DNA from: a virus | Strand: one strand, 5' to 3' | DNA: 64,000 nt | IMG/VR virus record: IMGVR_UViG_3300015078_000001 | Coordinates: 18,468-82,467 of that record | Shown: positions 11,231 to 53,689 of the stretch, piece after piece | Layout: the number at the start of each line of letters is the position of its first letter | How positions within the stretch are numbered: position 1 is the stretch's first letter | Notes under the pieces: generated by a model | What the model was told of the DNA's origin: nothing | What the model saw: only the letters and a program-made list of their open reading frames with translations | The model's database searches: none | Program-made: the position numbers and the translations under genes

Positions 11231-11307
11231 TGGAGCTAACGGTAAGGAATCGAACCCTACGGCCCGTATATTACAAGTATACCGCTCTGCCTCTGAGCTA
11301 CGAAAGC
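11231..11307 (-). tRNA. tRNA-Thr(UGU), atypical
   Basis: Cloverleaf with anticodon loop CTTGTAA and encoded CCA; two T-T mismatches in the acceptor stem and a 6-bp T stem. Confidence 0.75.
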
Positions 11308-11464
11308 GTAAATTTTTGACAGACTTAATCGGCATCTGTCGTGAGCATCTCCGTGCAGCCGGAACATTTCTGTTCACTATTGGTGGAGCTTTAGAGATTT
11401 GAACTCTACTGAATTTTTCTTTGCAAAAGAAACGACCACCCCGAGCAGTCCCAAACCCCAATAA

Positions 11465-11650
11465 CTATTCCTCTACTACAATATCTATCTCAATACCATG
11501 TGTATTGTGTAACTTGTGTTGTGCTTCTTTCAGCTTATGGAACAGGACTTTTACCTTATGTTCCAGAACTGCCACTCTATGTTCCAGAGTACCGGTATCA
11601 CCGGTCTTGGCGGGTACATTAAATTCCAAATTCGTCGCTTCGTTACTCAT
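11465..11650 (-). CDS. Hypothetical protein
   Basis: 61-aa ORF with AAGGA RBS. Confidence 0.5.
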   Translation of the reverse strand: MSNEATNLEFNVPAKTGDTGTLEHRVAVLEHKVKVLFHKLKEAQHKLHNTHGIEIDIVVEE

Positions 11651-11702
11651 ATCATCCTTTAGATAAGATTGCCGTCAGGCTTTTACACCTGACGGCTTGT
11701 TA

Positions 11703-12335
11703 TTAAGCAGTAACTAAGAAGCTAGCCGCCTTCGAAGTCATACCGTTAACAGTAACTATAAAATCAGCAGGGATTGCCGACGCCACAGGAATTGCAAACG
11801 TTATGGAAGTATCAGACCAGGCCGAAACCTGAGCCTTCGCTCCACCAACAGTTACCGAACTCACACCCTGGATTGCTCCAAAGTTAAGACCGGAAACAGT
11901 TACGTTAGAGCCAATCGGCCCTGACGCAGGAGAGAAGCTGTTAATCACAGGTGGATTGCCCGGATTACCATTCTGAGGGACAGCGGTACCAAGCACGAAG
12001 CTCAGACTTGTTGCTGCTCCGCCTGTACCAACGCCAGCAACCACGTCGATCAAAACCGTAGCAACTGCAACACTAGTATCAAGAGTACCGTCAGCCTTTA
12101 GAGCCGAAGCAGTCAGAAGCAGGTTAGCCTGAAGCTTACTTGCACCAAAAATGAAACCAGACGCCAGCATACCCGCTGCGGGAGTAGCATCAGGAACAAT
12201 TGTTGCCGAAGCTAAATCAGCCGAAACAACGCTGATTGTGTCGCCAAGCGGCAACGCTGCCGGGGCGAGTTTAGAATCTAATCCACTAACTGAGTAGGAA
12301 ACCTTTTGATCGGTACCTAATTGAAAATTTGCCAT
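11703..12335 (-). CDS. IPT/TIG (Ig-like) domain protein, probably virion-surface
   Basis: C-terminal PVINSFSPASGPIGSNVTVSGLNFG...WSDTSITFAIP is a typical IPT/TIG signature. Confidence 0.8.
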   Translation of the reverse strand: MANFQLGTDQKVSYSVSGLDSKLAPAALPLGDTISVVSADLASATIVPDATPAAGMLASGFIFGASKLQANLLLTASALKADGTLDTSVAVATVLIDVVAGVGTGGAATSLSFVLGTAVPQNGNPGNPPVINSFSPASGPIGSNVTVSGLNFGAIQGVSSVTVGGAKAQVSAWSDTSITFAIPVASAIPADFIVTVNGMTSKAASFLVTA

Positions 12336-12502
12336 TTTTATATCTTTTATTACTTTATTTTACTTTACTACCTCTGTCATATCTGGTCTGTAGCCTTATA
12401 AATCCTATACTACCTTCTCAGAAAAGAAAAATCTAATGACAGGAATCCGGTTACACCGGTCTTGTACCTATTGGGTACAAACTTTTAAAAACTTATTAAT
12501 AA

Positions 12503-12576
12503 TGGTCTGGGTTAATTGAATCGAACAATTTCCACATGTTTCCAGAACACGGATGCGACCACTACACCAAACCCAG
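12503..12576 (-). tRNA. tRNA-Pro(UGG)-like, atypical anticodon loop
   Basis: CTGGGTT/AACCCAG acceptor, A73, CCA and TTCGATT T loop; anticodon loop TCTGGAA (C33, A37). Confidence 0.6.
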
Positions 12577-13153: not shown

Positions 13154-13958
13154 TTTCCGGACATGAATCCTTCCAGGTACTTTGTAATAGAAACAGAGTA
13201 TGCTCCAATCGTTCTGCTAATTCTTTTGACATTTTATCTAAAGCATCTACTGTTGCCGGATTAGACATACAGTAATCTTCTATTATGGCTAAGTATTCAT
13301 CATTGGTACAGTAATCCTCCCACATTGTACCTGTTACACTTCTGTTCTTTGAGACTTTGGTAGATTCAATCCCCATAACTTCCTATCCTCCCATTTCAGA
13401 ATATCGTACTGTTCTACTACTTCCCACTTACCTTCATCCTCTTCTATTGATATAATACTTCCCGGTTTAACTTTACTATTGTAATCAAGCCAGGTTAATA
13501 TAAAGACGTTATTACCTTTTGTATTATCAGGATTTCTAACTAACCGAAGTTTTGTCTGTATTCGCTTCATACCAGATATCCCTTCTTGTACGGTCGTCCA
13601 TTTTCCGGACATCGTTCACTTGTTCTTCTGCCATTACTCTTTCCTGAGTCCAGTTAGGGCCGTACCAGGTATCAAACATACCTAATACAAATACTATATC
13701 AGATATAGGTCGCCCACATATTATGGCGTTTCTAAAAGCATTTACAGCATTCACTATTAATTCAGCATCTTTAGGGTCTTTCACATATCCCTTAACTCCG
13801 ACATGGTTGGCTGTAAGTATAAGATTATCTCCATAATATCTAGATTCCGGAGTTTCGGGAACATCTTTCTTTAAATCTCCGTTCTCTAATTTCCATAATG
13901 GTTCTTCTTTATACGCTATCCATTTACCAGACATCAATTGTTCTGCTTTTATCTCCAT
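13110..13958 (-). CDS. Three overlapping small hypothetical genes (13110-13376, 13334-13612, 13536-13958)
   Basis: ORF track; co-oriented and overlapping. Confidence 0.45.
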
Positions 13959-14143
13959 TATATCTCCGTACTCATTTGTATTCTGTGTATAAGGTATTCT
14001 CCAACCAATTTAGAGAAATGCCTGCCGATACAGAAGTTAGCTATAGAATTGGCAGCCTGTATATCTTTATCATCCATTCTGCCAAATTTCGAGCATTCGG
14101 ATAAAGGCAGTACTACTATTGGTTTTTCTATTTCTTTATTCAT
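13958..14143 (-). CDS. Hypothetical protein, probably leaderless
   Basis: ATG (MNKEIEKP) lies 7 nt downstream of a consensus -10 box. Confidence 0.55.
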   Translation of the reverse strand: MNKEIEKPIVVLPLSECSKFGRMDDKDIQAANSIANFCIGRHFSKLVGEYLIHRIQMSTEI

Positions 14144-14149
14144 AATACT

Positions 14150-14178
14150 ATTATACACAGCCCACTAGTGCATGTCAA
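14150..14178 (-). promoter_or_regulatory. Consensus sigma70-type promoter driving the leftward operon
   Basis: TTGACA-17 nt-TATAAT, exact consensus on the minus strand. Confidence 0.85.
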
Positions 14179-15173
14179 ATCTAAGTTCCAGGGACGTTAT
14201 AAGGTAGTAGAAGTGTACCGTCCCAGATGGTACCTTATTAAAGGAAACAGGACTGGCTTGTACTTTTTGTATATTGGTGTATATTGGCGTATACCTGTGC
14301 AGGCCGAGGGTATTACCAAGTCACCCAAGCCCGCTCCCCCTACTCAAAGGGGGTTGATCCCCCTGCCTAGTCTAGCTAAATCGTAAAGTAGTACTCCCTA
14401 GATATAAATATAATCATATCTAAGACTTAGCTCAGGATATAAACCCGAGAATTCTCGCATTTTAGGCCAATTGGCGTATACTTGAGAAAACAGCTATTTT
14501 GTGAATATACAGTTTGGCGTATACTTTTGCGAATGACGTAAAACAGGGGAAAATAGAATGGAGTGGTGGACTAGGTAACCCTATGGTAATCCCATAGATA
14601 TATTTACGCTGATATCTACGCCAATTGTATATTTATACCTGTAATCGGACCGCGATTCCGCCTTTTCAACGCAATCCGCTGATTCCAAAGGCTTTACGCG
14701 ATATCGCCGAAACGCTCAAAACCTGTCAAGCCCCTTTTTTCGCTTTGTTTTGAATGAGTTAGAGCCGGTCGCCGAAACACCGTGCTAGATTGCATTCACC
14801 GCAACGGAGCAGCGGCAAACATGAAAATCACTATCTACCCCGACAATAAACAAAATATCCACGTATCTGAAGTGCTAGCAATGCCCGTACATATTCCGGT
14901 ATATTTTGAAGTGTTTAACGGGACATACGAGTATTACATTTACGTCTAGTCACTATCGGGCACACTCACCGAGTGTTTCCGAGTAGAAACTAGCGTCCAA
15001 CACTGGCTGAATGCAAAGAGACGGTCTGAGACACGGGGAATACCCCTTAGCATATCTCAGGCTGTTAGATGCCGTGAAAAACTGGTATAAGTCTGGTTTA
15101 CCTGTAGGGGAATACGCTTTGGGAAATAGTTAAAAGCCTTTGTTATCAGGCATTTAGCCTTCCCTTGATTCCG

Positions 15174-15622
15174 CCGGTATGTGTAAAGCCTTTACAGGGT
15201 GCATGTTAGTTAGCGGTCTCTGAGTCTAAACGGGATTACTCACGGTTACGACCGTCACCGTCACAGAGTCTGACATGTATCCTGTTAAGGTTTTACTGGT
15301 ATCATACCGGGGATAAGCTACTACGGGATGGAAGAGCATGACAGGGTAATCTCAATACCCTATGTGATTGAATAGACTTCGCCTATGGTTAAAGCGGATT
15401 TATAACCCGCCCAGAATCGGCCTGTATTTGAGCAACGGATACAGGCGTTATCCGGTTAGCACTATGCGAGTTAGGTCAATCCATGAGAACAAGCAATCCG
15501 ATTGTCGGTTGTGAACGGTCAACGGGAAACAAACCCGAAGGGCAAACCGAATGACATCTAGGATTTATCCTACACACTCGATACAGGATTACACACGGTG
15601 ATTACCGTGTCATGCTCTTCCA
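15174..15622 (+). ncRNA. Putative structured RNA with two long stems
   Basis: 15174-15208 pairs with 15271-15310 (G-U pairs); 15329-15350 pairs with 15601-15622 (22 bp, 1 mismatch); no ORF of 60 aa or more. Confidence 0.55.
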
Positions 15623-15649
15623 ATGGCAGTCTAACAGGGTAATTACCCT

Positions 15650-15841
15650 TTGGAGGATAGTTTGAGATATCTCGTAATCGCAGTATTGCTCATGTCCGCT
15701 ATGTGCCTGGGAGAGTCAAAGCAGATTCTTCAGGTGAAGAGAATTAACCCGTCGAATGTGGTTCTCTCCTGTGCCAACGGAGCTGATCCAACGGGGAAAG
15801 AGATAAGCAAGCATGTATTGCTTATCAGTTGCGGGGAATAA
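15650..15841 (+). CDS. Small secreted/membrane protein
   Basis: Signal-peptide-like LVIAVLLMSAMCLG; a GGAGG RBS points to a start a few codons into the ORF. Confidence 0.5.
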   Translation: MEDSLRYLVIAVLLMSAMCLGESKQILQVKRINPSNVVLSCANGADPTGKEISKHVLLISCGE

Positions 15842-16016
15842 ATAGTAAACACGGTGAAGTGATTACCGTGTTAGGCTGCTAAGTTCTTTCAAGTCTTAGG
15901 GAAATAGGTTCGCTATGATGTCCATTTACTGGACATGATAGGGAATCTACGGATATCCCAACGGGAGTAAACCCTAAAAAAATCAGGACATACGCAAGTA
16001 TGTGAAGTAAATTAAC

Positions 16017-16421
16017 ATGGCTAACCCGATTAACCCGACAACGGGCAAAGAATACACTATCGCGGAACTTATGGCGAAGGTCGCCGAACTTGAGGCCCAG
16101 GCCGCCGCGAAGAACACGCTTTTCATGGGTGTTTCCGAAGAGACCGGCGTTATCTGCTTGTACGGTCTTCAGAAATTCCCCGTTTCCCTTCACCGGGAGC
16201 AATGGGAACGTGTCATCTCTCCCGAAACCCAGGCACTGGTCAAAGGATTCATCTCGAATCCCGATGTGATCACACTGACGCCTGGCAAAGCAAGCGCCGA
16301 AGATGCCAAAAAGAACGCGGCTACTCTGCGCAAGGCAAGTCAGAAACAGCTCAACGGATTGCCGATTGTACGCCGGCAGTCCGCTGAAACCAAAGCGAAG
16401 TTTGCTAAGGCATCGGCGTAG
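16017..16421 (+). CDS. Early protein, coiled coil plus VSExxGVxxYGLxxFPVxLxxEQW family
   Basis: Motif GVSEETGVICLYGLQKFPVSLHREQWERV. Confidence 0.7.
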   Translation: MANPINPTTGKEYTIAELMAKVAELEAQAAAKNTLFMGVSEETGVICLYGLQKFPVSLHREQWERVISPETQALVKGFISNPDVITLTPGKASAEDAKKNAATLRKASQKQLNGLPIVRRQSAETKAKFAKASA

Positions 16422-16476
16422 TATTGTTAGGCCGGATACTAACCTATCCGGCTTATAGAGTACTATTCAAGATGTT

Positions 16477-16716
16477 ATGAACAACACAATCATGTCCCGT
16501 CCATTAAGCGGAAACGCTTTGTTAGGCGCAATCAGGCGCATTCAAAACCATTTTACCGGCGTACATCGGTACAGGCCGGTATGTGGTGCGGTCGCAGTAA
16601 CATTCGCCGATGGTATGACTTTTGCCCATCGGTCAGCCAGGGAACTTCGGCATATCAGGCCCGTAGCAGAACGTATCGACGCAGAGTACAAACGGCATAG
16701 CAAGGCGAAAGAGTAA
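16477..16716 (+). CDS. Hypothetical early protein
   Basis: 79-aa ORF flanked by long hairpins. Confidence 0.5.
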   Translation: MNNTIMSRPLSGNALLGAIRRIQNHFTGVHRYRPVCGAVAVTFADGMTFAHRSARELRHIRPVAERIDAEYKRHSKAKE

Positions 16717-17826
16717 CATGACGGAGCATATACTTCGCTGTATGCTTCGATGATATTACTCTAAATGGAGAAAACATGGAATATACAATAAGGGAATCTC
16801 AGCCTATGACGGATGATACTGTTACTTGTCCGCATTGTGGTGCAATAACCTGTATTGCAGTACCCTGCCCACGTTGCGGGAAAATCAGTTAGTCCAGTAA
16901 ATGGACATGGCCGATATCCTTCGGGGTATCGGCTTTCTTTTTGTCTGGAGTATTCGCTTTTTGTACGCCTGGCGGAAAACGCGCCAGGATGCCCTATAAA
17001 CGCTCGACAGCATTTTGAGCATGTACCCTGCGTGGATCAATGCAAACGGGCCTGTATCGGCCACGGAGGCATCAAAAACCCGTATCCTGGTGACCGATTG
17101 AACCCCTGCCGTTCACGTTCCGCCGAATGACCGCTAGAATTTCCCCTGAATTTCCATCCTACCTATACTCTATAAGTCAAGGTATTTATTCAAAATACCA
17201 TATAAAAATCCTCAAAATACTACAAATTGTATACAAAATATAGTTTTTTGTATATGTTTTATAATATATTCGATGCTATTATATAGCCCTGGCATAGTAA
17301 TAGCCGTGCCCTGGCCGGCGAGCCGATGTCCGGAAAATGGACATAAACCGAATCGAATCAGCGGTTTAGCGGCGATGCCGCACCGTCCTGAGCAATTTCA
17401 GGGCCAAAATCTGTCAAGCCCCAAACGAAAAAAAATTTCTCGTTTGTTTTCAACGGTTTACAGCCGAAAATTTTTTGCGGCTCCGTTGTTTGCAGTCGGT
17501 CGTGCGACAATGGTGTTGCGCCAAAGCCCGTGTATAGCAGGGCAGGGAAGGAAAGATGGCACAACCAATACGGGTAAGAGTAACTAAGCCGCTAATGAAG
17601 TCTACCTGGAATCCTGGTAAGATGAACAGGAAAATAAAGGTAAATGCGGCTAAGAACAAACTTAATGAGTTTGGGAATAGGGAGGCTGTAAAATGAATAC
17701 TAAAGTACTAGCCTTTGAAGAACGTAAATCAAGGTTTTTACTATACACTATGGAAAAACCTTATAAGTTTGTATGGGCGGAAAGTTTAGGATGTTGGATG
17801 GCGTTTAGGTTAGCAAACTTACCAGT

Positions 17827-18880
17827 TGTATGGTAGCCTGTACTTACAGGCAAGCTACAGGAATTAACTCCCTGTATCTTGCTGGTAAGTATAGATTAGT
17901 CAGCGCGGTACTTGAATCCTAAAGAGTATACCGGGTGTCTTACGAGACATAAAGCCTGGTATTCAGGGTGATAAATTCAGAGCACCCAACAAGTACAGTC
18001 CATACATTTATCCGGCCATAGGCCGTAGTATAGGGCAAAAGTAGCCGCTATCATACTTGCAAGTCACGGAAGTGGCGACCAATGATGGGTATAAACAATT
18101 TGTCTGGGGTACTTTCAGCGTAGCTTTTGCTTATTTCTCTACGTTCTTTCAGCCTTGAGACACCTGCAAACATAATCCCGATTAATTCGGAATTGCACTA
18201 GTGTGCATATTGCATGTTTATATCTATCATTGGTTGCCATTTCGCAGGCATTCTATGATGTATACAATCAATATCAGGGTTATCTTATCACCTCCTAATG
18301 TATAATCCCTGTATTTGAGTTAAACTCCTCCAATAGTGCGGATAGGACTTCACTATTGCAGTGATTGTATATATCATAGAGTGCCTATTTATGGCGTTCT
18401 ATAGAGTAGATAATAGGGTCGTTAGCGGAGAAATTACCAGCAAGTGCGTAGGAAAACGGTAGTAAGCTTCGTAAGATATCCATTGATTGAATTCCTACCT
18501 TTGAGATATTCACTATTGTCTATTCTATAGAGCGTCATACGTGGCGAGGTAGTTTAATTCTGTAACAATGCTATACGGCAATTAGGGGAGCCGATAACCA
18601 CTCCATTAACATCAGGTTATCATACTTACCTAATATCAGGTAGAAAACATTGTCAGCTAAATTAGAAAGGGTCTGTCCCTTCTAGTCCTGGCAACAAGAT
18701 TCTGTCGGCTGTATAGATCAGGAATAGAATTGGCTATCTTTCCGGGCTGCTCCTGATTATAATTAATCGAGAGGCCGTTTAACCGAGTGTAGGTTTAATG
18801 CTATAGGCATATAGATTGCCGATAGTATACTCTATACTCAGTTAAGCGGCCTTTCTTTTGGTTATAACAGGGCAGCCTAG
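17827..18880 (+). ncRNA. Putative giant structured non-coding RNA locus
   Basis: About 1.05 kb with no credible ORF; four long duplexes of 25-30+ bp, many short hairpins, an 11-bp long-range pairing; wobbles are G-U on the + strand. Confidence 0.7.
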
Positions 18881-18994
18881 AGAAGGGAAGCCTTGAGAGG
18901 TAACGACTGCCGGGAGACCGAAAACGATACTTCTCCCCTTCCTATGAGCAATTATGTCCAGAAAATGGACAGATTGTTGATAGGAGAGGAAAAT

Positions 18995-19279
18995 ATGGCT
19001 AAAATTACAATTAGTGAAGGCCTGACCTGGCTTAAAACCCTGGAGAAACGTCATGCAGAACTTGTAAGATTGCGTGATAATAATTCAAAATCAGTATCGT
19101 CGAACTATAACGGTGCTGTTACTACTCAGGTACCTGAGTATAATGCCAAAGAACTTGATAAGCGTATCACATTGCTTGCCAGAGAACTAAGGCTTTGTGA
19201 AACAGCTATCAAGAAAGCTAACGCTGTTACAGTTTTGGAATATCACCAGGATGATAATGTTCTCGGTGAATTGGTTTAA
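18995..19279 (+). CDS. Helical protein resembling DIP1984/DUF6847-like family
   Basis: MAKITISEGL...IKKANAVTVL pattern; all-helical; GGAGAGGA RBS. Confidence 0.45.
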   Translation: MAKITISEGLTWLKTLEKRHAELVRLRDNNSKSVSSNYNGAVTTQVPEYNAKELDKRITLLARELRLCETAIKKANAVTVLEYHQDDNVLGELV

Positions 19280-19478: not shown

Positions 19479-20009
19479 CAGGAACAGGGATTAAGTTCCC
19501 TGTCTCCTGCTGAGATGTCCATTTACCGGACATTTGAGCAGGAGGGAGTATGAAGAAGATTATCACTATTTCATTTACTTATAACGATCCAAAGCACTTG
19601 GATAACAGCGTAATTGAAATGCTGCACATTCTCTATAGGGGAATAGTTACTACATTTAACTGGTTTATTGCTTCATCTTTTAAGGTTAGAGATGAAGAGT
19701 AGTTTCTCGACTCAGCCTATTATATAGTAGGCTGCGATGGGGGAATTATGAGAAAATTTGCAGTAGAGATCACTCTGTCCGATGAAGATGTACAAGCAAT
19801 AGCAAATAGCTATGGGGAAAAGAATCTGTCCGATTCTATCCTTCGTCATGACGTACAATCTGTGTATGAGGATCACGTTGAATTAGTAAAAAGCAGGTAG
19901 TATGAAATACTCTCATATTCATGCTTCTGACCATCTTACCTAATTGAAAAGAAGTTTAACATAGTAATTTTTGAAGATTACAGACTTTATCAAAAACCCT
20001 GGAGGTAAT

Positions 20010-20453
20010 ATGAACGCACAAATTGAACAAGCCCTGAAAGATTGTAGAGAAGCCTGGGCACAACATCCCGAAGCAACTATCGCCTGGTGTTGTCACCATG
20101 AAGTACAGATTGAGCCGTTAGCCTTTCCTGTTGAAGAACGTATTGAGTATATTTTAAACAATAAACCTGAACAGGAAAGAGTTTTACGGTTTACTAATTT
20201 CCGACCTTTTATCGGTACGCTACCGAGAGGAATGCAGAAAGCTGATGCTGACTGGCAGAAAGCTTATGCTGACCGGCAGAAAGCTTATGCTGACCGGCAG
20301 AAAGCTTATGCTGACTGGCAGAAAGCTGATGCTGACTGGCAGAAAGCTGATGCTGACTGGCAGAAAGCTTATGCTGACTGTAAAGATGAAATCAACGTCC
20401 TTCATCAACAGCAAGTTCCAAACAATACCTGGAACGGAAAGAGTATCTTTTAG
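20010..20453 (+). CDS. Hypothetical protein with heptad repeats (QKAY/DADW/R)
   Basis: GGAGG RBS; seven 7-aa repeats. Confidence 0.75.
   Translation: MNAQIEQALKDCREAWAQHPEATIAWCCHHEVQIEPLAFPVEERIEYILNNKPEQERVLRFTNFRPFIGTLPRGMQKADADWQKAYADRQKAYADRQKAYADWQKADADWQKADADWQKAYADCKDEINVLHQQQVPNNTWNGKSIF
20234..20380 (+). repeat. 7 x 21-bp in-frame tandem repeat
   Basis: GCAGAAAGCT(G/T)ATGCTGAC(T/C)G x7. Confidence 0.95.
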
Positions 20454-26101: not shown

Positions 26102-26413
26102 TTTCGATTCAGCCTATAGTTATATAGGTTGAAATGGGGGTTAAAATGGGCGTATCTAATTCAATAGTTGAATCTATAGATTCTAAAACTCATATAGGGT
26201 GTCCGGGTGTTTTAGTAATAAGTACAGAATATACAGAAAAGGGCGAAAAATTTGATGAAAGATGGTACCAAATTGAAGCAGATAAAATTACTACTTTTTT
26301 AATACGAATTTTTAGTATTAAAACTATACGTTGTATTGCAAAAAACCTTGAACATTATTTATAGTCTTTCGAGCAAATGTCCATTTTCCAGACATTTGTT
26401 GGGGAGATTAAAA

Positions 26414-27085
26414 ATGTTAATAGGTAGAGGAAGACATGAAGAAGTGATGGGATATCAGTTTCAGGACCATGGCTTATTTACCAAAGCTTTAACTCATAAA
26501 AGTTTTAGCTTGTTAAATAACGAAAAGCTTGAATTTCGGGGTGATTCTATCCTCGATTTTGTACTAACAGACTGGTTGCTTACTAAGTTCCCTGATAAGT
26601 CCGAAGGTGATTTAGCTAAGCTATGGGATAGAATGGCATCGGCCCATAATCTTGCGAGAATTAGTAAAGAAATTGGTCTGGATAAGTGGATAATTAAGAA
26701 GCAGCATGTACCTATATCCGATCAGTTACTTGCCGATACACTAGAAGCTGTTATCGGAGCTATTTATCTTGACGGAGGATTAGAACCTGCTACTTTGTTT
26801 ATCCATAGATGGGTTACTAACATCATACCCGAATCTGTAGACTATAAAACTCAGTTACAGGAAAAAACCCAGGCGTTTGGATATACCCCTGTATATGAAA
26901 CAATACAAAATACAGCTTCTCAGGGAAATAGATTGGTATTTACGGCTAAACTAGAAATTCCCCAGAGAGTTGTTCGGCGATATGATGGCGAGCTACATGA
27001 CGTTGTTATACGGTTTCTTGCAGAAGGTTATACCAAGAAAGAAGCAGAACAGAACGTAGCTAAAAAAGCTTTGGAGGTATTATGA
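26414..27085 (+). CDS. rnc: Ribonuclease III (catalytic domain plus dsRBD)
   Basis: ALTHKSF..NNEKLEFRGDSIL, ADTLEAVIGAIYLDGG, DYKTQLQE, GYTKKEAEQNVAKKALE. Confidence 0.93.
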   Translation: MLIGRGRHEEVMGYQFQDHGLFTKALTHKSFSLLNNEKLEFRGDSILDFVLTDWLLTKFPDKSEGDLAKLWDRMASAHNLARISKEIGLDKWIIKKQHVPISDQLLADTLEAVIGAIYLDGGLEPATLFIHRWVTNIIPESVDYKTQLQEKTQAFGYTPVYETIQNTASQGNRLVFTAKLEIPQRVVRRYDGELHDVVIRFLAEGYTKKEAEQNVAKKALEVL

Positions 27086-51651: not shown

Positions 51652-51725
51652 AGCCGGATCGTTCAATGGTAGGACGTAATCCTTTGGAGATTACTATAAG
51701 CGTTCGAATCGCTTTCCGGTTACCA
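51652..51725 (+). tRNA. tRNA-Gln(UUG)
   Basis: Cloverleaf; loop CTTTGGA; CCA. Confidence 0.9.
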
Positions 51726-51727
51726 AT

Positions 51728-51816
51728 GCAGGTTAGGCCGATACGGTTTAGCGGCGTGAGTCTGTAAAACTCATTTCCTTCGGGGAGTACAAGTCCGAAT
51801 CTTGTAACCTGCACCA
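51728..51816 (+). tRNA. tRNA-Tyr(GUA)
   Basis: Loop CTGTAAA; long variable arm; A73, CCA. Confidence 0.9.
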
Positions 51817-51824
51817 GTTTTTAC

Positions 51825-51911
51825 TTGGGGTTGGTGGAAAGGCAGACACACTAGTTTTAGGAACTAGCGGGAGAAATCCTATTAGGAGTTCAAATCTCCT
51901 ACCCCAAACCA
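51825..51911 (+). tRNA. tRNA-Leu(UAG)
   Basis: Loop TTTAGGA; long variable arm; A73, CCA. Confidence 0.9.
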
Positions 51912-52546: not shown

Positions 52547-53689
52547 GTGTCTGAAAAACCATTAAGTCATCAGGTAAAAGTAGTAAGAGTTCCTGCGCCG
52601 AGAATCCATTCAAATGCAGATAGCTTGGAAATCCTGGACACGCTTGGATTCCAAACTGTAGTAAGAAAGGGAGAGTACAAAGAAGGCGATCTAGCATTTT
52701 TTGTTTGCCCCGATTCTATAATTCCGCCGGATAAATATCAGTTCTCTTTTCTTTGGGATGGAAAAACTGCTCCAGGAGAAGATATTCCTGTAAAATATCG
52801 AAGAATAAGGGCCGTAAGATTGCGTTCTGTTTGGTCTGAAGGCTTACTAATGCCGGTTAAGTCTTTTCCAGAATTGAAAGATTGTAAAGTAAATGACAAT
52901 GTATCAGATATATTAAATATCCAACACTACCAACCGCCCGATCCCGAAGATATGAAAGGTCAGAACGAACGTGGGCCTAAACGTCATCTTCCTAAGACAT
53001 TTAAAGGCTGGTGCTTCTATATATACTGGAATATAATTGGTAGACTAGGGTTTTCTACTCCTTTACAAGGTAGTAATGAGAAAGGGCCGAAGAACGGAAA
53101 ACCGTATTACGATATTGACAATGGAAAGCACTTCCCGGATGTATTTCAAGAAGGGGAACAGGTAGTAATTACAGAGAAGCTCCACGGTTGTCAGGGAAAA
53201 TATGTATACCAGGATGGTAAAATGTACGCAGGTTCTCGTAACTATTGGAAGAGTAAGAATAGTACCTGTGTATGGAGAAAGACTTTAGCACAAAATAGCT
53301 GGATAGAAGATTGGTGTAAAAAGAACGAAGGACTTACGCTTTATGGAGAAATTGTGCCTGTACAGGGTCAAAACTTCATGTACGGTTGTAAGCCCGGAGA
53401 ATTAAAGTTCTTTGTGTTTGATATACTGAAATTTAATCATACGTGGGTTAGTAAGAAAGATACCGAACCTAATGATTTCTTCGGCTTACTGAATCATTGG
53501 GTTCCGATATTATACATAGGTGAATATGTTAAAGAAGAAGTGAAGAAACTAGTAGAGGGTAAAAGTACTCTCGATAAAAACACCGTTCGAGAAGGTATTG
53601 TTATTACGAGTTACGAAGAAGAACATGTACGGGGTTTGGGAAGAAAGATTTTGAAGCTAATTTCGAACGACTATTTATCTAAAAATTAA
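52547..53689 (+). CDS. RNA ligase (DRB0094/Rnl2-like family)
   Basis: HSNADSLE...VVRKGEYKEGDL OB-like N-terminus; TEKLHG, YGEIV, FVFDI and REGIVI. Confidence 0.88.
   Translation: MSEKPLSHQVKVVRVPAPRIHSNADSLEILDTLGFQTVVRKGEYKEGDLAFFVCPDSIIPPDKYQFSFLWDGKTAPGEDIPVKYRRIRAVRLRSVWSEGLLMPVKSFPELKDCKVNDNVSDILNIQHYQPPDPEDMKGQNERGPKRHLPKTFKGWCFYIYWNIIGRLGFSTPLQGSNEKGPKNGKPYYDIDNGKHFPDVFQEGEQVVITEKLHGCQGKYVYQDGKMYAGSRNYWKSKNSTCVWRKTLAQNSWIEDWCKKNEGLTLYGEIVPVQGQNFMYGCKPGELKFFVFDILKFNHTWVSKKDTEPNDFFGLLNHWVPILYIGEYVKEEVKKLVEGKSTLDKNTVREGIVITSYEEEHVRGLGRKILKLISNDYLSKN

What the first reader, a model, noticed from the sequence alone, without database searches (positions are those of the whole stretch)
17827..18880. 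A ~1-kb ORF-free locus that folds into a giant, ornate RNA on the + strand
Seen: three consecutive near-perfect duplexes, 18069-18097/18215-18243 (29 bp), 18246-18270/18362-18386 (25 bp) and 18390-18416/18513-18539 (27 bp). Each closes a 90-120 nt loop. An irregular ~50-bp hairpin follows (18745-18877). Dense short hairpins fill 17827-18060. An 11-bp long-range pairing joins CTTGCTGGTAA (17878-17888) to TTACCAGCAAG (18434-18444, inside the third loop). A possible 8-bp loop-loop contact joins 18281-18288 and 18471-18478. The non-Watson-Crick pairs in the three long stems are all G-U on the + strand (10 in total) and would be A-C on the minus strand, which points to selection on RNA rather than DNA palindromes. 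Knowledge: large phage ncRNAs such as GOLLD and ROOL exist, but I cannot match this one by eye. Inference: either an undescribed giant ncRNA or a precursor from which the loops are excised as separate small RNAs.
Basis: partly seen in the sequence, partly recalled or inferred. Interest (0 to 1): 0.92.

Follow-up and report, generated by a model that had tools for sequence, protein, structure and literature searches.

The report
New giant structured phage RNA
A 1-kb gene-free stretch of an uncultured soil phage folds, on one strand only, into a large RNA whose helices are kept by compensating mutations in a related phage; it matches no known RNA family and carries long perfect duplexes that the phage's own RNase III could cut.

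Summary
All 10 non-Watson-Crick pairs are G-U on the + strand. In the 109-kb phage contig these are the only uninterrupted stems of 25 bp or more, and none of 18 bp or more exists on the minus strand. Fold z-scores are -19 (+) and -8 (-). No reading frame exceeds 48 aa, and Rfam 15 gives no match.

One full homologue exists (L003, a soil contig). A structure predicted from the window alone keeps 26 base pairs there through changes on both sides; slid controls give 2-8. The 5' core is 94% identical. The 3' domain is 71% identical but still paired.

The RNA is modular. L003 lacks the third duplex unit and has unrelated loop tips, so the loops are the least conserved part.

The phage encodes an RNase III 7.5 kb downstream. 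My best reading is a new large structured RNA whose perfect duplexes are RNase III processing sites. Transcription and cleavage are untested. Only two full copies are known.

The parts
17834..17896 (+). P1: 5' hairpin of 22 bp in three segments. It starts at the stop codon of the upstream small ORF. Homology with L003 resumes exactly here.
   Evidence: I4; z -6.2; the BLAST block starts at 17834. Two compensatory pairs in L003 (U-A to C-G, G-C to A-U). Identical copy in a lake-water contig with unrelated flanks.
17897..18068 (+). 5' core: multi-branched domain and the most conserved part (93.6% identity to L003, including a block of about 70 nt with no change).
   Evidence: Covariance model R1 scores 288 and 284 bits on the two copies and finds only weak hairpin-like matches elsewhere.
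18069..18243 (+). Unit 1: 29-bp uninterrupted duplex (4 G-U) closing a 117-nt loop. The stem is conserved in L003; the loop is replaced there by an unrelated 52 nt.
   Evidence: In L003: 2 compensatory A-U to G-C changes, 2 wobble changes, 1 A-C mismatch.
18246..18386 (+). Unit 2: 25-bp uninterrupted duplex (2 G-U) closing a 91-nt loop. The proximal loop hairpins are conserved with covariation and display a CCUCC motif. The distal part of the loop is unrelated in L003.
   Evidence: One compensatory change (U-A to C-G) and 2 wobble changes in the stem. Four compensatory pairs in the proximal loop hairpin (18272-18313).
18390..18539 (+). Unit 3: 27-bp uninterrupted duplex (4 G-U) closing a 96-nt loop. 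Absent from L003. The base of its stem is paralogous to units 1 and 2. The indel is flanked by TGGCG.
18543..18744 (+). 3' domain: multi-branched. Only 71% identical to L003, yet it holds most of the compensatory pairs.
   Evidence: (for example 18559/18728, 18560/18727, 18581/18634, 18597/18617, 18642-18652/18692-18703).
18745..18877 (+). Terminal 133-nt hairpin. Its inner stem 18769-18855 is followed by a conserved U-rich run (18856-18859 within UUUCUUUUGG), so it resembles a terminator. The outer stem pairs across that run.
   Evidence: -76.6 kcal/mol, z -12.5; compensatory pairs 18749/18873, 18783/18841, 18786/18838. The terminator role is inferred.
26336..27085 (+). Phage-encoded class-1 RNase III (nuclease domain plus dsRBD), the candidate enzyme for the long duplexes. 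The link to this RNA is inferred.
   Evidence: PF14622, 3.9e-25; dsrm, 4.5e-08; NEKLEFRGDS and ADTLEA motifs; matches to solved RNase III and Drosha.
17406..17470 (+). Conserved upstream element, also present at 14718 before the other structured stretch and kept in L003. Candidate promoter or regulatory site (inferred).
   Evidence: 17428-17475: 3 differences in 48 nt in the relative.

Best explanation
The locus 17834-18880 encodes a new, roughly 1.05-kb structured noncoding RNA, read from the + strand as part of the rightward transcription unit of an uncultured soil phage.

Its layout is: a 5' hairpin, a very conserved multi-branched 5' core, an array of two or three paralogous units, a fast-evolving but structurally conserved 3' domain, and a giant terminal hairpin. 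Each unit is a perfect 25-29-bp duplex capped by a variable 50-120-nt loop.

The perfect duplexes are most likely RNase III cleavage sites. They would be cut by the phage's own RNase III (26336-27082) or by the host enzyme, as rRNA processing stems are. Cutting would split the transcript into a stable 5' core RNA, loop-derived hairpin RNAs and a 3' domain RNA, and would separate the upstream and downstream mRNAs.

Shown: the structure, its strand bias, its conservation by covariation, its modularity, the absence of coding capacity, the absence of any known family match, and the presence of the RNase III gene.

Inferred: transcription, cleavage, and any trans-acting role of the pieces.

I put about 0.85 on 'selected + strand RNA structure' and about 0.45 on the full reading that includes RNase III processing.
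For: Structure and chance.

Strand: all 10 wobble pairs are G-U on the + strand. MFE is -416 (+) against -331 (-). z is -19 against -8. L003 shows the same bias, z -15.5 against -7.2. All flanking genes are on the + strand.

Not coding: the longest stop-to-stop frame is 48 aa, and no gene is called in the L003 counterpart.

Covariation: the window's own MFE structure, projected blind onto L003, gives 190 unchanged pairs, 20 kept after a one-sided change, 26 kept after changes on both sides, and 27 broken. Sliding the partners by 1-3 columns gives only 2-8 compensatory pairs. RNAalifold finds 34 compensatory pairs of 268.

Selection: the 5' core is 93.6% identical, while the adjacent 94-aa gene is about 86% identical in DNA and the 46-aa gene is 65% identical in protein.

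RNase III link: only S1-S3 are uninterrupted for more than 20 bp; every other helix is broken by bulges. S2 stays perfect in L003, and S1 is perfect apart from one A-C. The phage carries an intact RNase III with a dsRBD, a gene that matches in only 13 of 50,697 phage records. From established knowledge, bacterial RNase III cleaves duplexes of about 20 bp or more, and rRNA processing stems have this size.
Against: There is no expression data: no RNA run holds the sequence. Only two full-length copies plus short fragments exist, so covariation cannot be given a proper statistical test such as R-scape. The loops that processing would release are not conserved, and one whole unit is dispensable. 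L003 carries an A-C mismatch in S1. The RNase III gene lies 7.5 kb away, and its link to the RNA rests only on co-occurrence in one genome; the L003 contig is too short to show whether that phage has the gene. G-T pairs are also the most tolerated mismatch in single-stranded DNA hairpins, so a DNA-level role is not strictly excluded.
Confidence: 0.45

Rival explanations
1. The RNA works intact as a large scaffold, as GOLLD and ROOL do. The long duplexes are rigid structural arms, for example for multimer assembly or protein docking. They are shielded from RNase III and are not processing sites.
For: The size, the many helices, the very conserved 5' core and the phage location resemble known large ornate RNAs (PMC12286853 for GOLLD/ROOL assemblies). 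The variable loop tips and the variable unit number fit peripheral arms.
Against: Uninterrupted duplexes of 25-29 bp are what RNase III cuts. The other helices of this RNA are all interrupted, which singles out these stems. The phage also adds its own RNase III. There is no match to the GOLLD or ROOL models.
Confidence: 0.25
2. It is a purely cis-acting intergenic mRNA element: a large processing and stability spacer in a polycistronic transcript, like the RNase III sites between phage T7 early genes. It uncouples the small upstream genes from the downstream operon and has no trans-acting RNA product.
For: It lies between co-oriented genes with no clear promoter before the downstream gene. The genome is full of junction hairpins, including one that pairs the next gene's Shine-Dalgarno at 18936-18990. 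RNase III is present.
Against: One kilobase with a 94%-conserved multi-branched core is far more than a processing site needs. The other gene junctions of this genome use hairpins of about 50 nt. The core is more conserved than the genes it would serve.
Confidence: 0.13
3. It acts at the DNA level: single-strand hairpins of a replication origin or priming site, or a tandem set of small palindromic mobile units (MITE-like) whose inverted ends form the stems.
For: The locus lies 3-4 kb from the divergent-transcription and cumulative GC-skew turning point. The unit number varies, and homology breaks fall at unit borders. The arms of the three units are paralogous.
Against: No target-site duplication flanks unit 3 (sequence read directly). 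Mismatches between the arms are 10 of 10 G-T on one strand, and the arms co-vary between phages. Neither is expected for transposase-recognised ends. No other copy of any unit exists in the 109-kb contig. Multi-branched domains with many G-U pairs and compensatory changes are typical of RNA.
Confidence: 0.07

Closest known systems
GOLLD and ROOL (large ornate bacterial and phage ncRNAs; Rfam families)
   Same: Several hundred to about a thousand nucleotides, many helices, no coding capacity, found in phage genomes, no biochemical function assigned.
   Different: No match to either covariance model even at E up to 10. This RNA carries an array of perfect 25-29-bp duplexes with swappable tips, which is not, to my knowledge, a feature of those RNAs. 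Only two full copies are known, against hundreds to thousands.
RNase III processing stems of bacterial rRNA operons, and RNase III sites of phage T7 early mRNA
   Same: Long duplexes formed by sequences that flank a segment of a longer transcript, of the size RNase III cleaves. They sit between functional units of one transcript.
   Different: Here the enclosed segments are about 50-120 nt, not conserved and variable in number. Three stems stand head to tail with 2-3-nt linkers. The enzyme may be the phage's own. Cleavage is untested.
Staphylococcus aureus RNAIII and other multi-hairpin regulatory RNAs with C-rich loops
   Same: A large multi-hairpin RNA. One conserved apical loop shows CCUCC, complementary to Shine-Dalgarno sequences. 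RNAIII-target duplexes are RNase III substrates (established knowledge).
   Different: Only one such loop is conserved. The 10-nt match to the 16S rRNA tail is not kept in L003 (C to A). No target has been identified. There is no sequence relationship.
Clustered pri-miRNA hairpins of eukaryotes and their viruses
   Same: A tandem array of long stem-loops in one transcript, potentially cut by an RNase III-family enzyme.
   Different: Bacterial class-1 RNase III has no measuring or loading machinery. Here the stems are conserved and the loops vary, the reverse of miRNA hairpins. This is an analogy only.

Membership tests
Any Rfam 15 family (including GOLLD, ROOL, OLE, HEARO, Y RNA-like, group I/II introns, 6S, tmRNA, RNase P) | Score at or above the family's gathering threshold with its covariance model | tested here: not met
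   (whole window: only 4 tRNAs). (17500-19100 at E up to 10: only sub-threshold miRNA-like hairpin hits, best 23.5 bits against a gathering score of 68). (13900-17900: none).
Conserved structured ncRNA (generic) | Base pairs maintained by compensatory substitutions in homologues | tested here: met
   26 double-compensated pairs against 2-8 in slid controls; 34 of 268 pairs. Limited to one homologue, so no R-scape-type significance is available.
Conserved structured ncRNA (generic) | Transcribed from the predicted strand | not testable with these tools
   No RNA run holds the sequence. The strand is inferred from G-U asymmetry and gene orientation.
RNase III substrate | Uninterrupted dsRNA of about 20 bp or more | tested here: met
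   29, 25 and 27 bp with only G-U wobble pairs.
RNase III substrate | Cleaved by RNase III with staggered cuts in the duplex | not testable with these tools
   Needs an in vitro or in vivo assay. The enzyme gene is present.
MITE-like or transposon unit | Terminal inverted repeats with a target-site duplication, and multiple dispersed copies | tested here: not met
   No direct repeat lies immediately outside the arms of unit 3 (sequence). No other copy exists in the contig, in IMG/VR or in JGI metagenomes.
Protein-coding gene | An open reading frame conserved in homologues | tested here: not met
   the longest frame within the locus is 48 aa; no gene is called in L003:1555-2529.

The most novel reading that the evidence does not exclude
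This is a phage-borne, expandable cassette array. Conserved perfect duplexes act as RNase III excision signals around rapidly exchanged 50-120-nt loop cargos (two units in one phage, three in another, tips swapped). The array sits in a conserved 1-kb scaffold RNA and is serviced by the phage's own RNase III. It would be a bacterial-virus counterpart of a pri-miRNA or sRNA cluster, delivering variable small RNAs such as anti-Shine-Dalgarno or anti-host antisense RNAs.
Probability: 0.2. Interest if true: 0.9.

Novelty: new variant of a known kind. Interest (0 to 1): 0.7.

Why it matters
Only a handful of large structured RNAs beyond ribosomal RNA, RNase P and introns are known, and each new one has opened new RNA biology. 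The cryo-EM finding that GOLLD and ROOL form RNA-only cages is one example.

This locus adds a candidate with an unusual design. A strongly conserved core is joined to a variable-number array of perfect duplexes with swappable tips, in a phage that carries its own RNase III, which is a rare gene in phages. If the duplexes are processing sites, it would be a self-contained viral RNA-maturation system that makes several RNAs from one precursor.

It can be tested directly with a synthetic locus and the recombinant enzyme, without culturing the phage.

Tried and rejected
Known families: Rfam at gathering score and at E up to 10 gave nothing.

More homologues were sought in several ways:
- blastn against 50,697 phage records found none.
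- Exact-pattern scans of IMG/VR with three conserved 18-22-mers found none.
- Scans of JGI metagenome contigs found none for a 31-mer and only 14 chance hits in unrelated genes for an 18-mer.
- A scan of GTDB genome contigs found none.
- Neighbour-gene searches gave only L003 as a close relative. The more distant relatives of the downstream 94-aa gene (L002, L004-L008, 58-66% aa identity) have no detectable counterpart of the RNA by blastn or by covariance model R1.

Paralogues in the same contig: none.

Expression: two sequencing-run searches found no RNA holder.

A 200-nt sliding-window energy scan was uninformative for the long-range stems. A z-score scan of the whole window timed out.

Ideas rejected:
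- CRISPR-like array: the arms are inverted, not direct, repeats.
- Retron or bridge RNA: no Rfam match, and none of the neighbouring ORFs scanned against Pfam is a reverse transcriptase or recombinase (the contig was not searched exhaustively).
- tRNA-like elements: ARAGORN finds none in the locus.
- Circularisation of excised loops by the phage RNA ligase: the ends would not form a ligatable nick.

Full report
**What is in the sequence.** The window is part of a 109-kb IMG/VR virus contig, about 72% complete and with no close relative among deposited phages. Between the stop codon of a 47-aa ORF (17834-17836) and the start of a 94-aa gene (18995) lies 1.16 kb in which no stop-to-stop frame exceeds 48 aa.

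Counting the pairs gives 25+4, 23+2 and 23+4 Watson-Crick plus G-U pairs and no other mismatch. The 5' hairpin 17838-17894 (z -6.2) and the 133-nt hairpin 18745-18877 (-76.6 kcal/mol, z -12.5) are also real.

**Is it more than chance, and which strand?** I scanned the whole contig for uninterrupted stems of 18 bp or more, with the arms up to roughly 500 nt apart.
- The + strand has 7 when G-U is allowed, and the three stems here are the only ones of 25 bp or more.
- The minus strand has none.
- Watson-Crick pairing alone gives none.

The 996-nt core folds at -385 kcal/mol against -261 +/- 6.5 for dinucleotide shuffles (z -19). Its reverse complement reaches only -302 (z -8). The full locus gives -416 against -331. 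So the structure is specific to the + strand, which is also the strand of all neighbouring genes.

**Known families.** Rfam 15 finds only tRNAs in the window at gathering score. At E up to 10 the locus gives only sub-threshold miRNA-like hits on the long hairpins. The upstream 4 kb gives nothing. GOLLD, ROOL, OLE, HEARO, Y-like RNAs, introns and ribozymes are therefore not matched.

**Homologues.** Public runs hold near-identical fragments in lake-water metagenomes and a diverged syntenic copy in another soil sample. I recovered the soil copy through the downstream gene (P0001, 91% aa identity) as contig L003.

The BLAST and block-wise alignments give this map:

| Part | Window coordinates | In L003 |
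|---|---|---|
| P1 hairpin | 17836-17896 | 85% identical |
| 5' core | 17897-18068 | 93.6% identical |
| Stem arms of units 1 and 2 | see Parts | 83-93% identical |
| Loop 1 | 18098-18214 (117 nt) | replaced by an unrelated 52 nt |
| Proximal half of loop 2 | 18271-18329 | conserved |
| Distal half of loop 2 | 18330-18361 | unrelated |
| Unit 3 | 18390-18542 | absent |
| 3' domain | 18543-18744 | 71% identical |
| Terminal hairpin | 18745-18877 | 71% identical |

The L003 RNA also folds far better than shuffles on the + strand (z -15.5) than on the minus strand (z -7.2).

More distant relatives of the downstream gene (58-66% aa identity) have no counterpart of the RNA. Pattern scans of IMG/VR, JGI metagenomes and GTDB genomes found no further copy.

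**Covariation.** To avoid circularity I took the MFE structure of the window alone and asked how its pairs fare in L003:

| Outcome in L003 | Pairs |
|---|---|
| Unchanged | 190 |
| Changed on one side, still paired | 20 |
| Changed on both sides, still paired | 26 |
| Broken | 27 |

Many of the broken pairs lie at hairpin tips (notably 18793-18830) where the alignment has indels. Sliding the 3' partners by 1-3 columns gives only 2-8 doubly changed pairs that still pair, and 46-64 broken ones. RNAalifold on the pair of sequences reports 34 compensatory pairs of 268.

In the two shared long stems, L003 has 11 substitutions. Three pairs are fully compensated (A-U to G-C twice in S1, U-A to C-G in S2). 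Four changes run through G-U. One gives an A-C mismatch.

The 3' domain is the clearest case. It has diverged to 71% identity, and helix after helix is rebuilt, for example 18642-18652 with 18692-18703. The 5' core changes less than the flanking genes do. The 94-aa gene is about 86% identical in DNA. The 46-aa gene is 65% identical in protein. The 47-aa ORF is not conserved at all.

This is what selection on an RNA structure looks like. With one homologue it cannot be given a formal significance.

**Modularity.** The bases of the three stems are paralogous (GGCR followed by a YCWAU-rich run). The array therefore grew or shrank by unit. The unit 3 indel is flanked by TGGCG on both sides and has no target-site duplication outside the arms.

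Homology breakpoints fall at helix ends. This holds in L003. It also holds in a lake-water contig that carries P1 (17834-17891) without a single difference but with unrelated flanks, and in another that matches from 18539 onward only.

The 11-bp contact also competes with P1's own stem. They are present in the sequence but have no comparative support.

The 10-nt match to the 16S tail is not.

**Context.**
- A terminator-like hairpin with a T-run at 16909-16934 closes the preceding genes.
- A roughly 60-nt element at 17406-17470 recurs at 14718, upstream of a second, less extreme structured stretch (14940-15900; z -6.9 on +, -5.3 on -). It is kept in L003. It is a candidate promoter.
- Downstream of the RNA, a hairpin tipped by the genome's abundant 17-bp palindrome pairs the Shine-Dalgarno of the next gene.
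- At 26336-27082 the phage encodes a complete class-1 RNase III with a dsRBD and the acidic signature motifs. Only 13 of 50,697 phage records have a match to it.

**Mechanism.** Only S1-S3 are uninterrupted for more than 20 bp. Every other helix of the RNA is broken by bulges into shorter segments, the longest about 15 bp in the terminal hairpin. The perfection is kept in L003.

From established knowledge, bacterial RNase III cuts such duplexes, and the stems flanking 16S and 23S rRNA have this size. I therefore think the most likely mechanism is RNase III processing of a long + strand transcript. Cutting would release the conserved 5' core, hairpin RNAs carrying the variable loops, and the 3' domain.

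- Shown: the structure, the strand bias, the covariation, the modularity and the presence of the enzyme gene.
- Inferred: transcription, cleavage, and what the pieces do.

Because the loops are the least conserved parts, they are either fast-evolving cargo or mere caps. The conserved core is the better candidate for the functional product.

The rivals are an intact GOLLD/ROOL-like scaffold with rigid arms, a purely cis-acting mRNA processing spacer, and a single-strand DNA or mobile-unit role. The last fits worst, given the one-strand G-T bias, the compensatory changes and the lack of other copies.

**Novelty and limits.** The locus is not a member of any described RNA family by the only membership test available (Rfam covariance models). 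It belongs to the known kind 'large structured phage ncRNA of unknown function', with a new architecture. The catalogue of IMG/VR structured RNAs required at least three IMG/VR regions (PMC10690425), and this RNA has only one there, so it was probably missed.

The main weaknesses are the two-sequence comparison and the absence of any expression data.

Noticed in passing
window 26336-27085 (+): Complete phage-encoded class-1 RNase III (nuclease domain plus dsRBD; NEKLEFRGDS and ADTLEA motifs). Only 13 of 50,697 phage records give a tblastn match, several of which look like host-contaminated records.
   Followed up: yes
window, 45 sites, e.g. 17327-17343, 18955-18971, 19516-19532: The 17-bp quasi-palindrome TGTCCGGAAAATGGACA occurs 45 times (up to 2 mismatches) against 0.19 expected. 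Copies bracket the RNA locus. At 18955 and 19516 it forms the tip of hairpins whose base pairs the next gene's Shine-Dalgarno.
   Followed up: partly
window 14940-15900 (+): A second ORF-poor structured stretch (z -6.9 on +, -5.3 on -) with a 23-bp stem 15329-15351/15600-15622 closing 248 nt. No Rfam match. No homologue was available, because L003 does not reach it.
   Followed up: partly
window 14718-14790 and 17406-17470; L003 about 900-970: A shared element of about 60 nt (AAAAYCTGTCAAGCCCC ... TCGYTTTGTTTTSAA) lies upstream of both structured stretches and is conserved in the relative. Candidate promoter or regulatory site.
   Followed up: partly
window 17556-17696 (+) and 17693-17836 (+): Two small ORFs lie just upstream of the RNA. 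The 46-aa basic protein is conserved in L003 (65% aa). The 47-aa ORF is replaced there by an unrelated 54-aa ORF.
   Followed up: yes
window 52547-53689 (+); tRNAs at 11231-12576, 23082, 42688, 51652-51911: An RNA ligase (PF09414 plus the PHA02142 OB fold) and eight tRNA genes. Together with RNase III they give this phage an unusually rich RNA-handling gene set.
   Followed up: no
window 19971-20453 (+): A 160-aa ORF with a tandem peptide repeat (WQKAYAD/WQKADAD, about 7 copies) over 20220-20414. No Pfam match.
   Followed up: no
lake-water contigs laid on window 17834-17891 and 18539-18762: A third lineage carries P1 with no difference but unrelated flanks, and carries the 3' domain preceded by unrelated sequence. 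The homology breaks fall at the ends of structural modules.
   Followed up: partly
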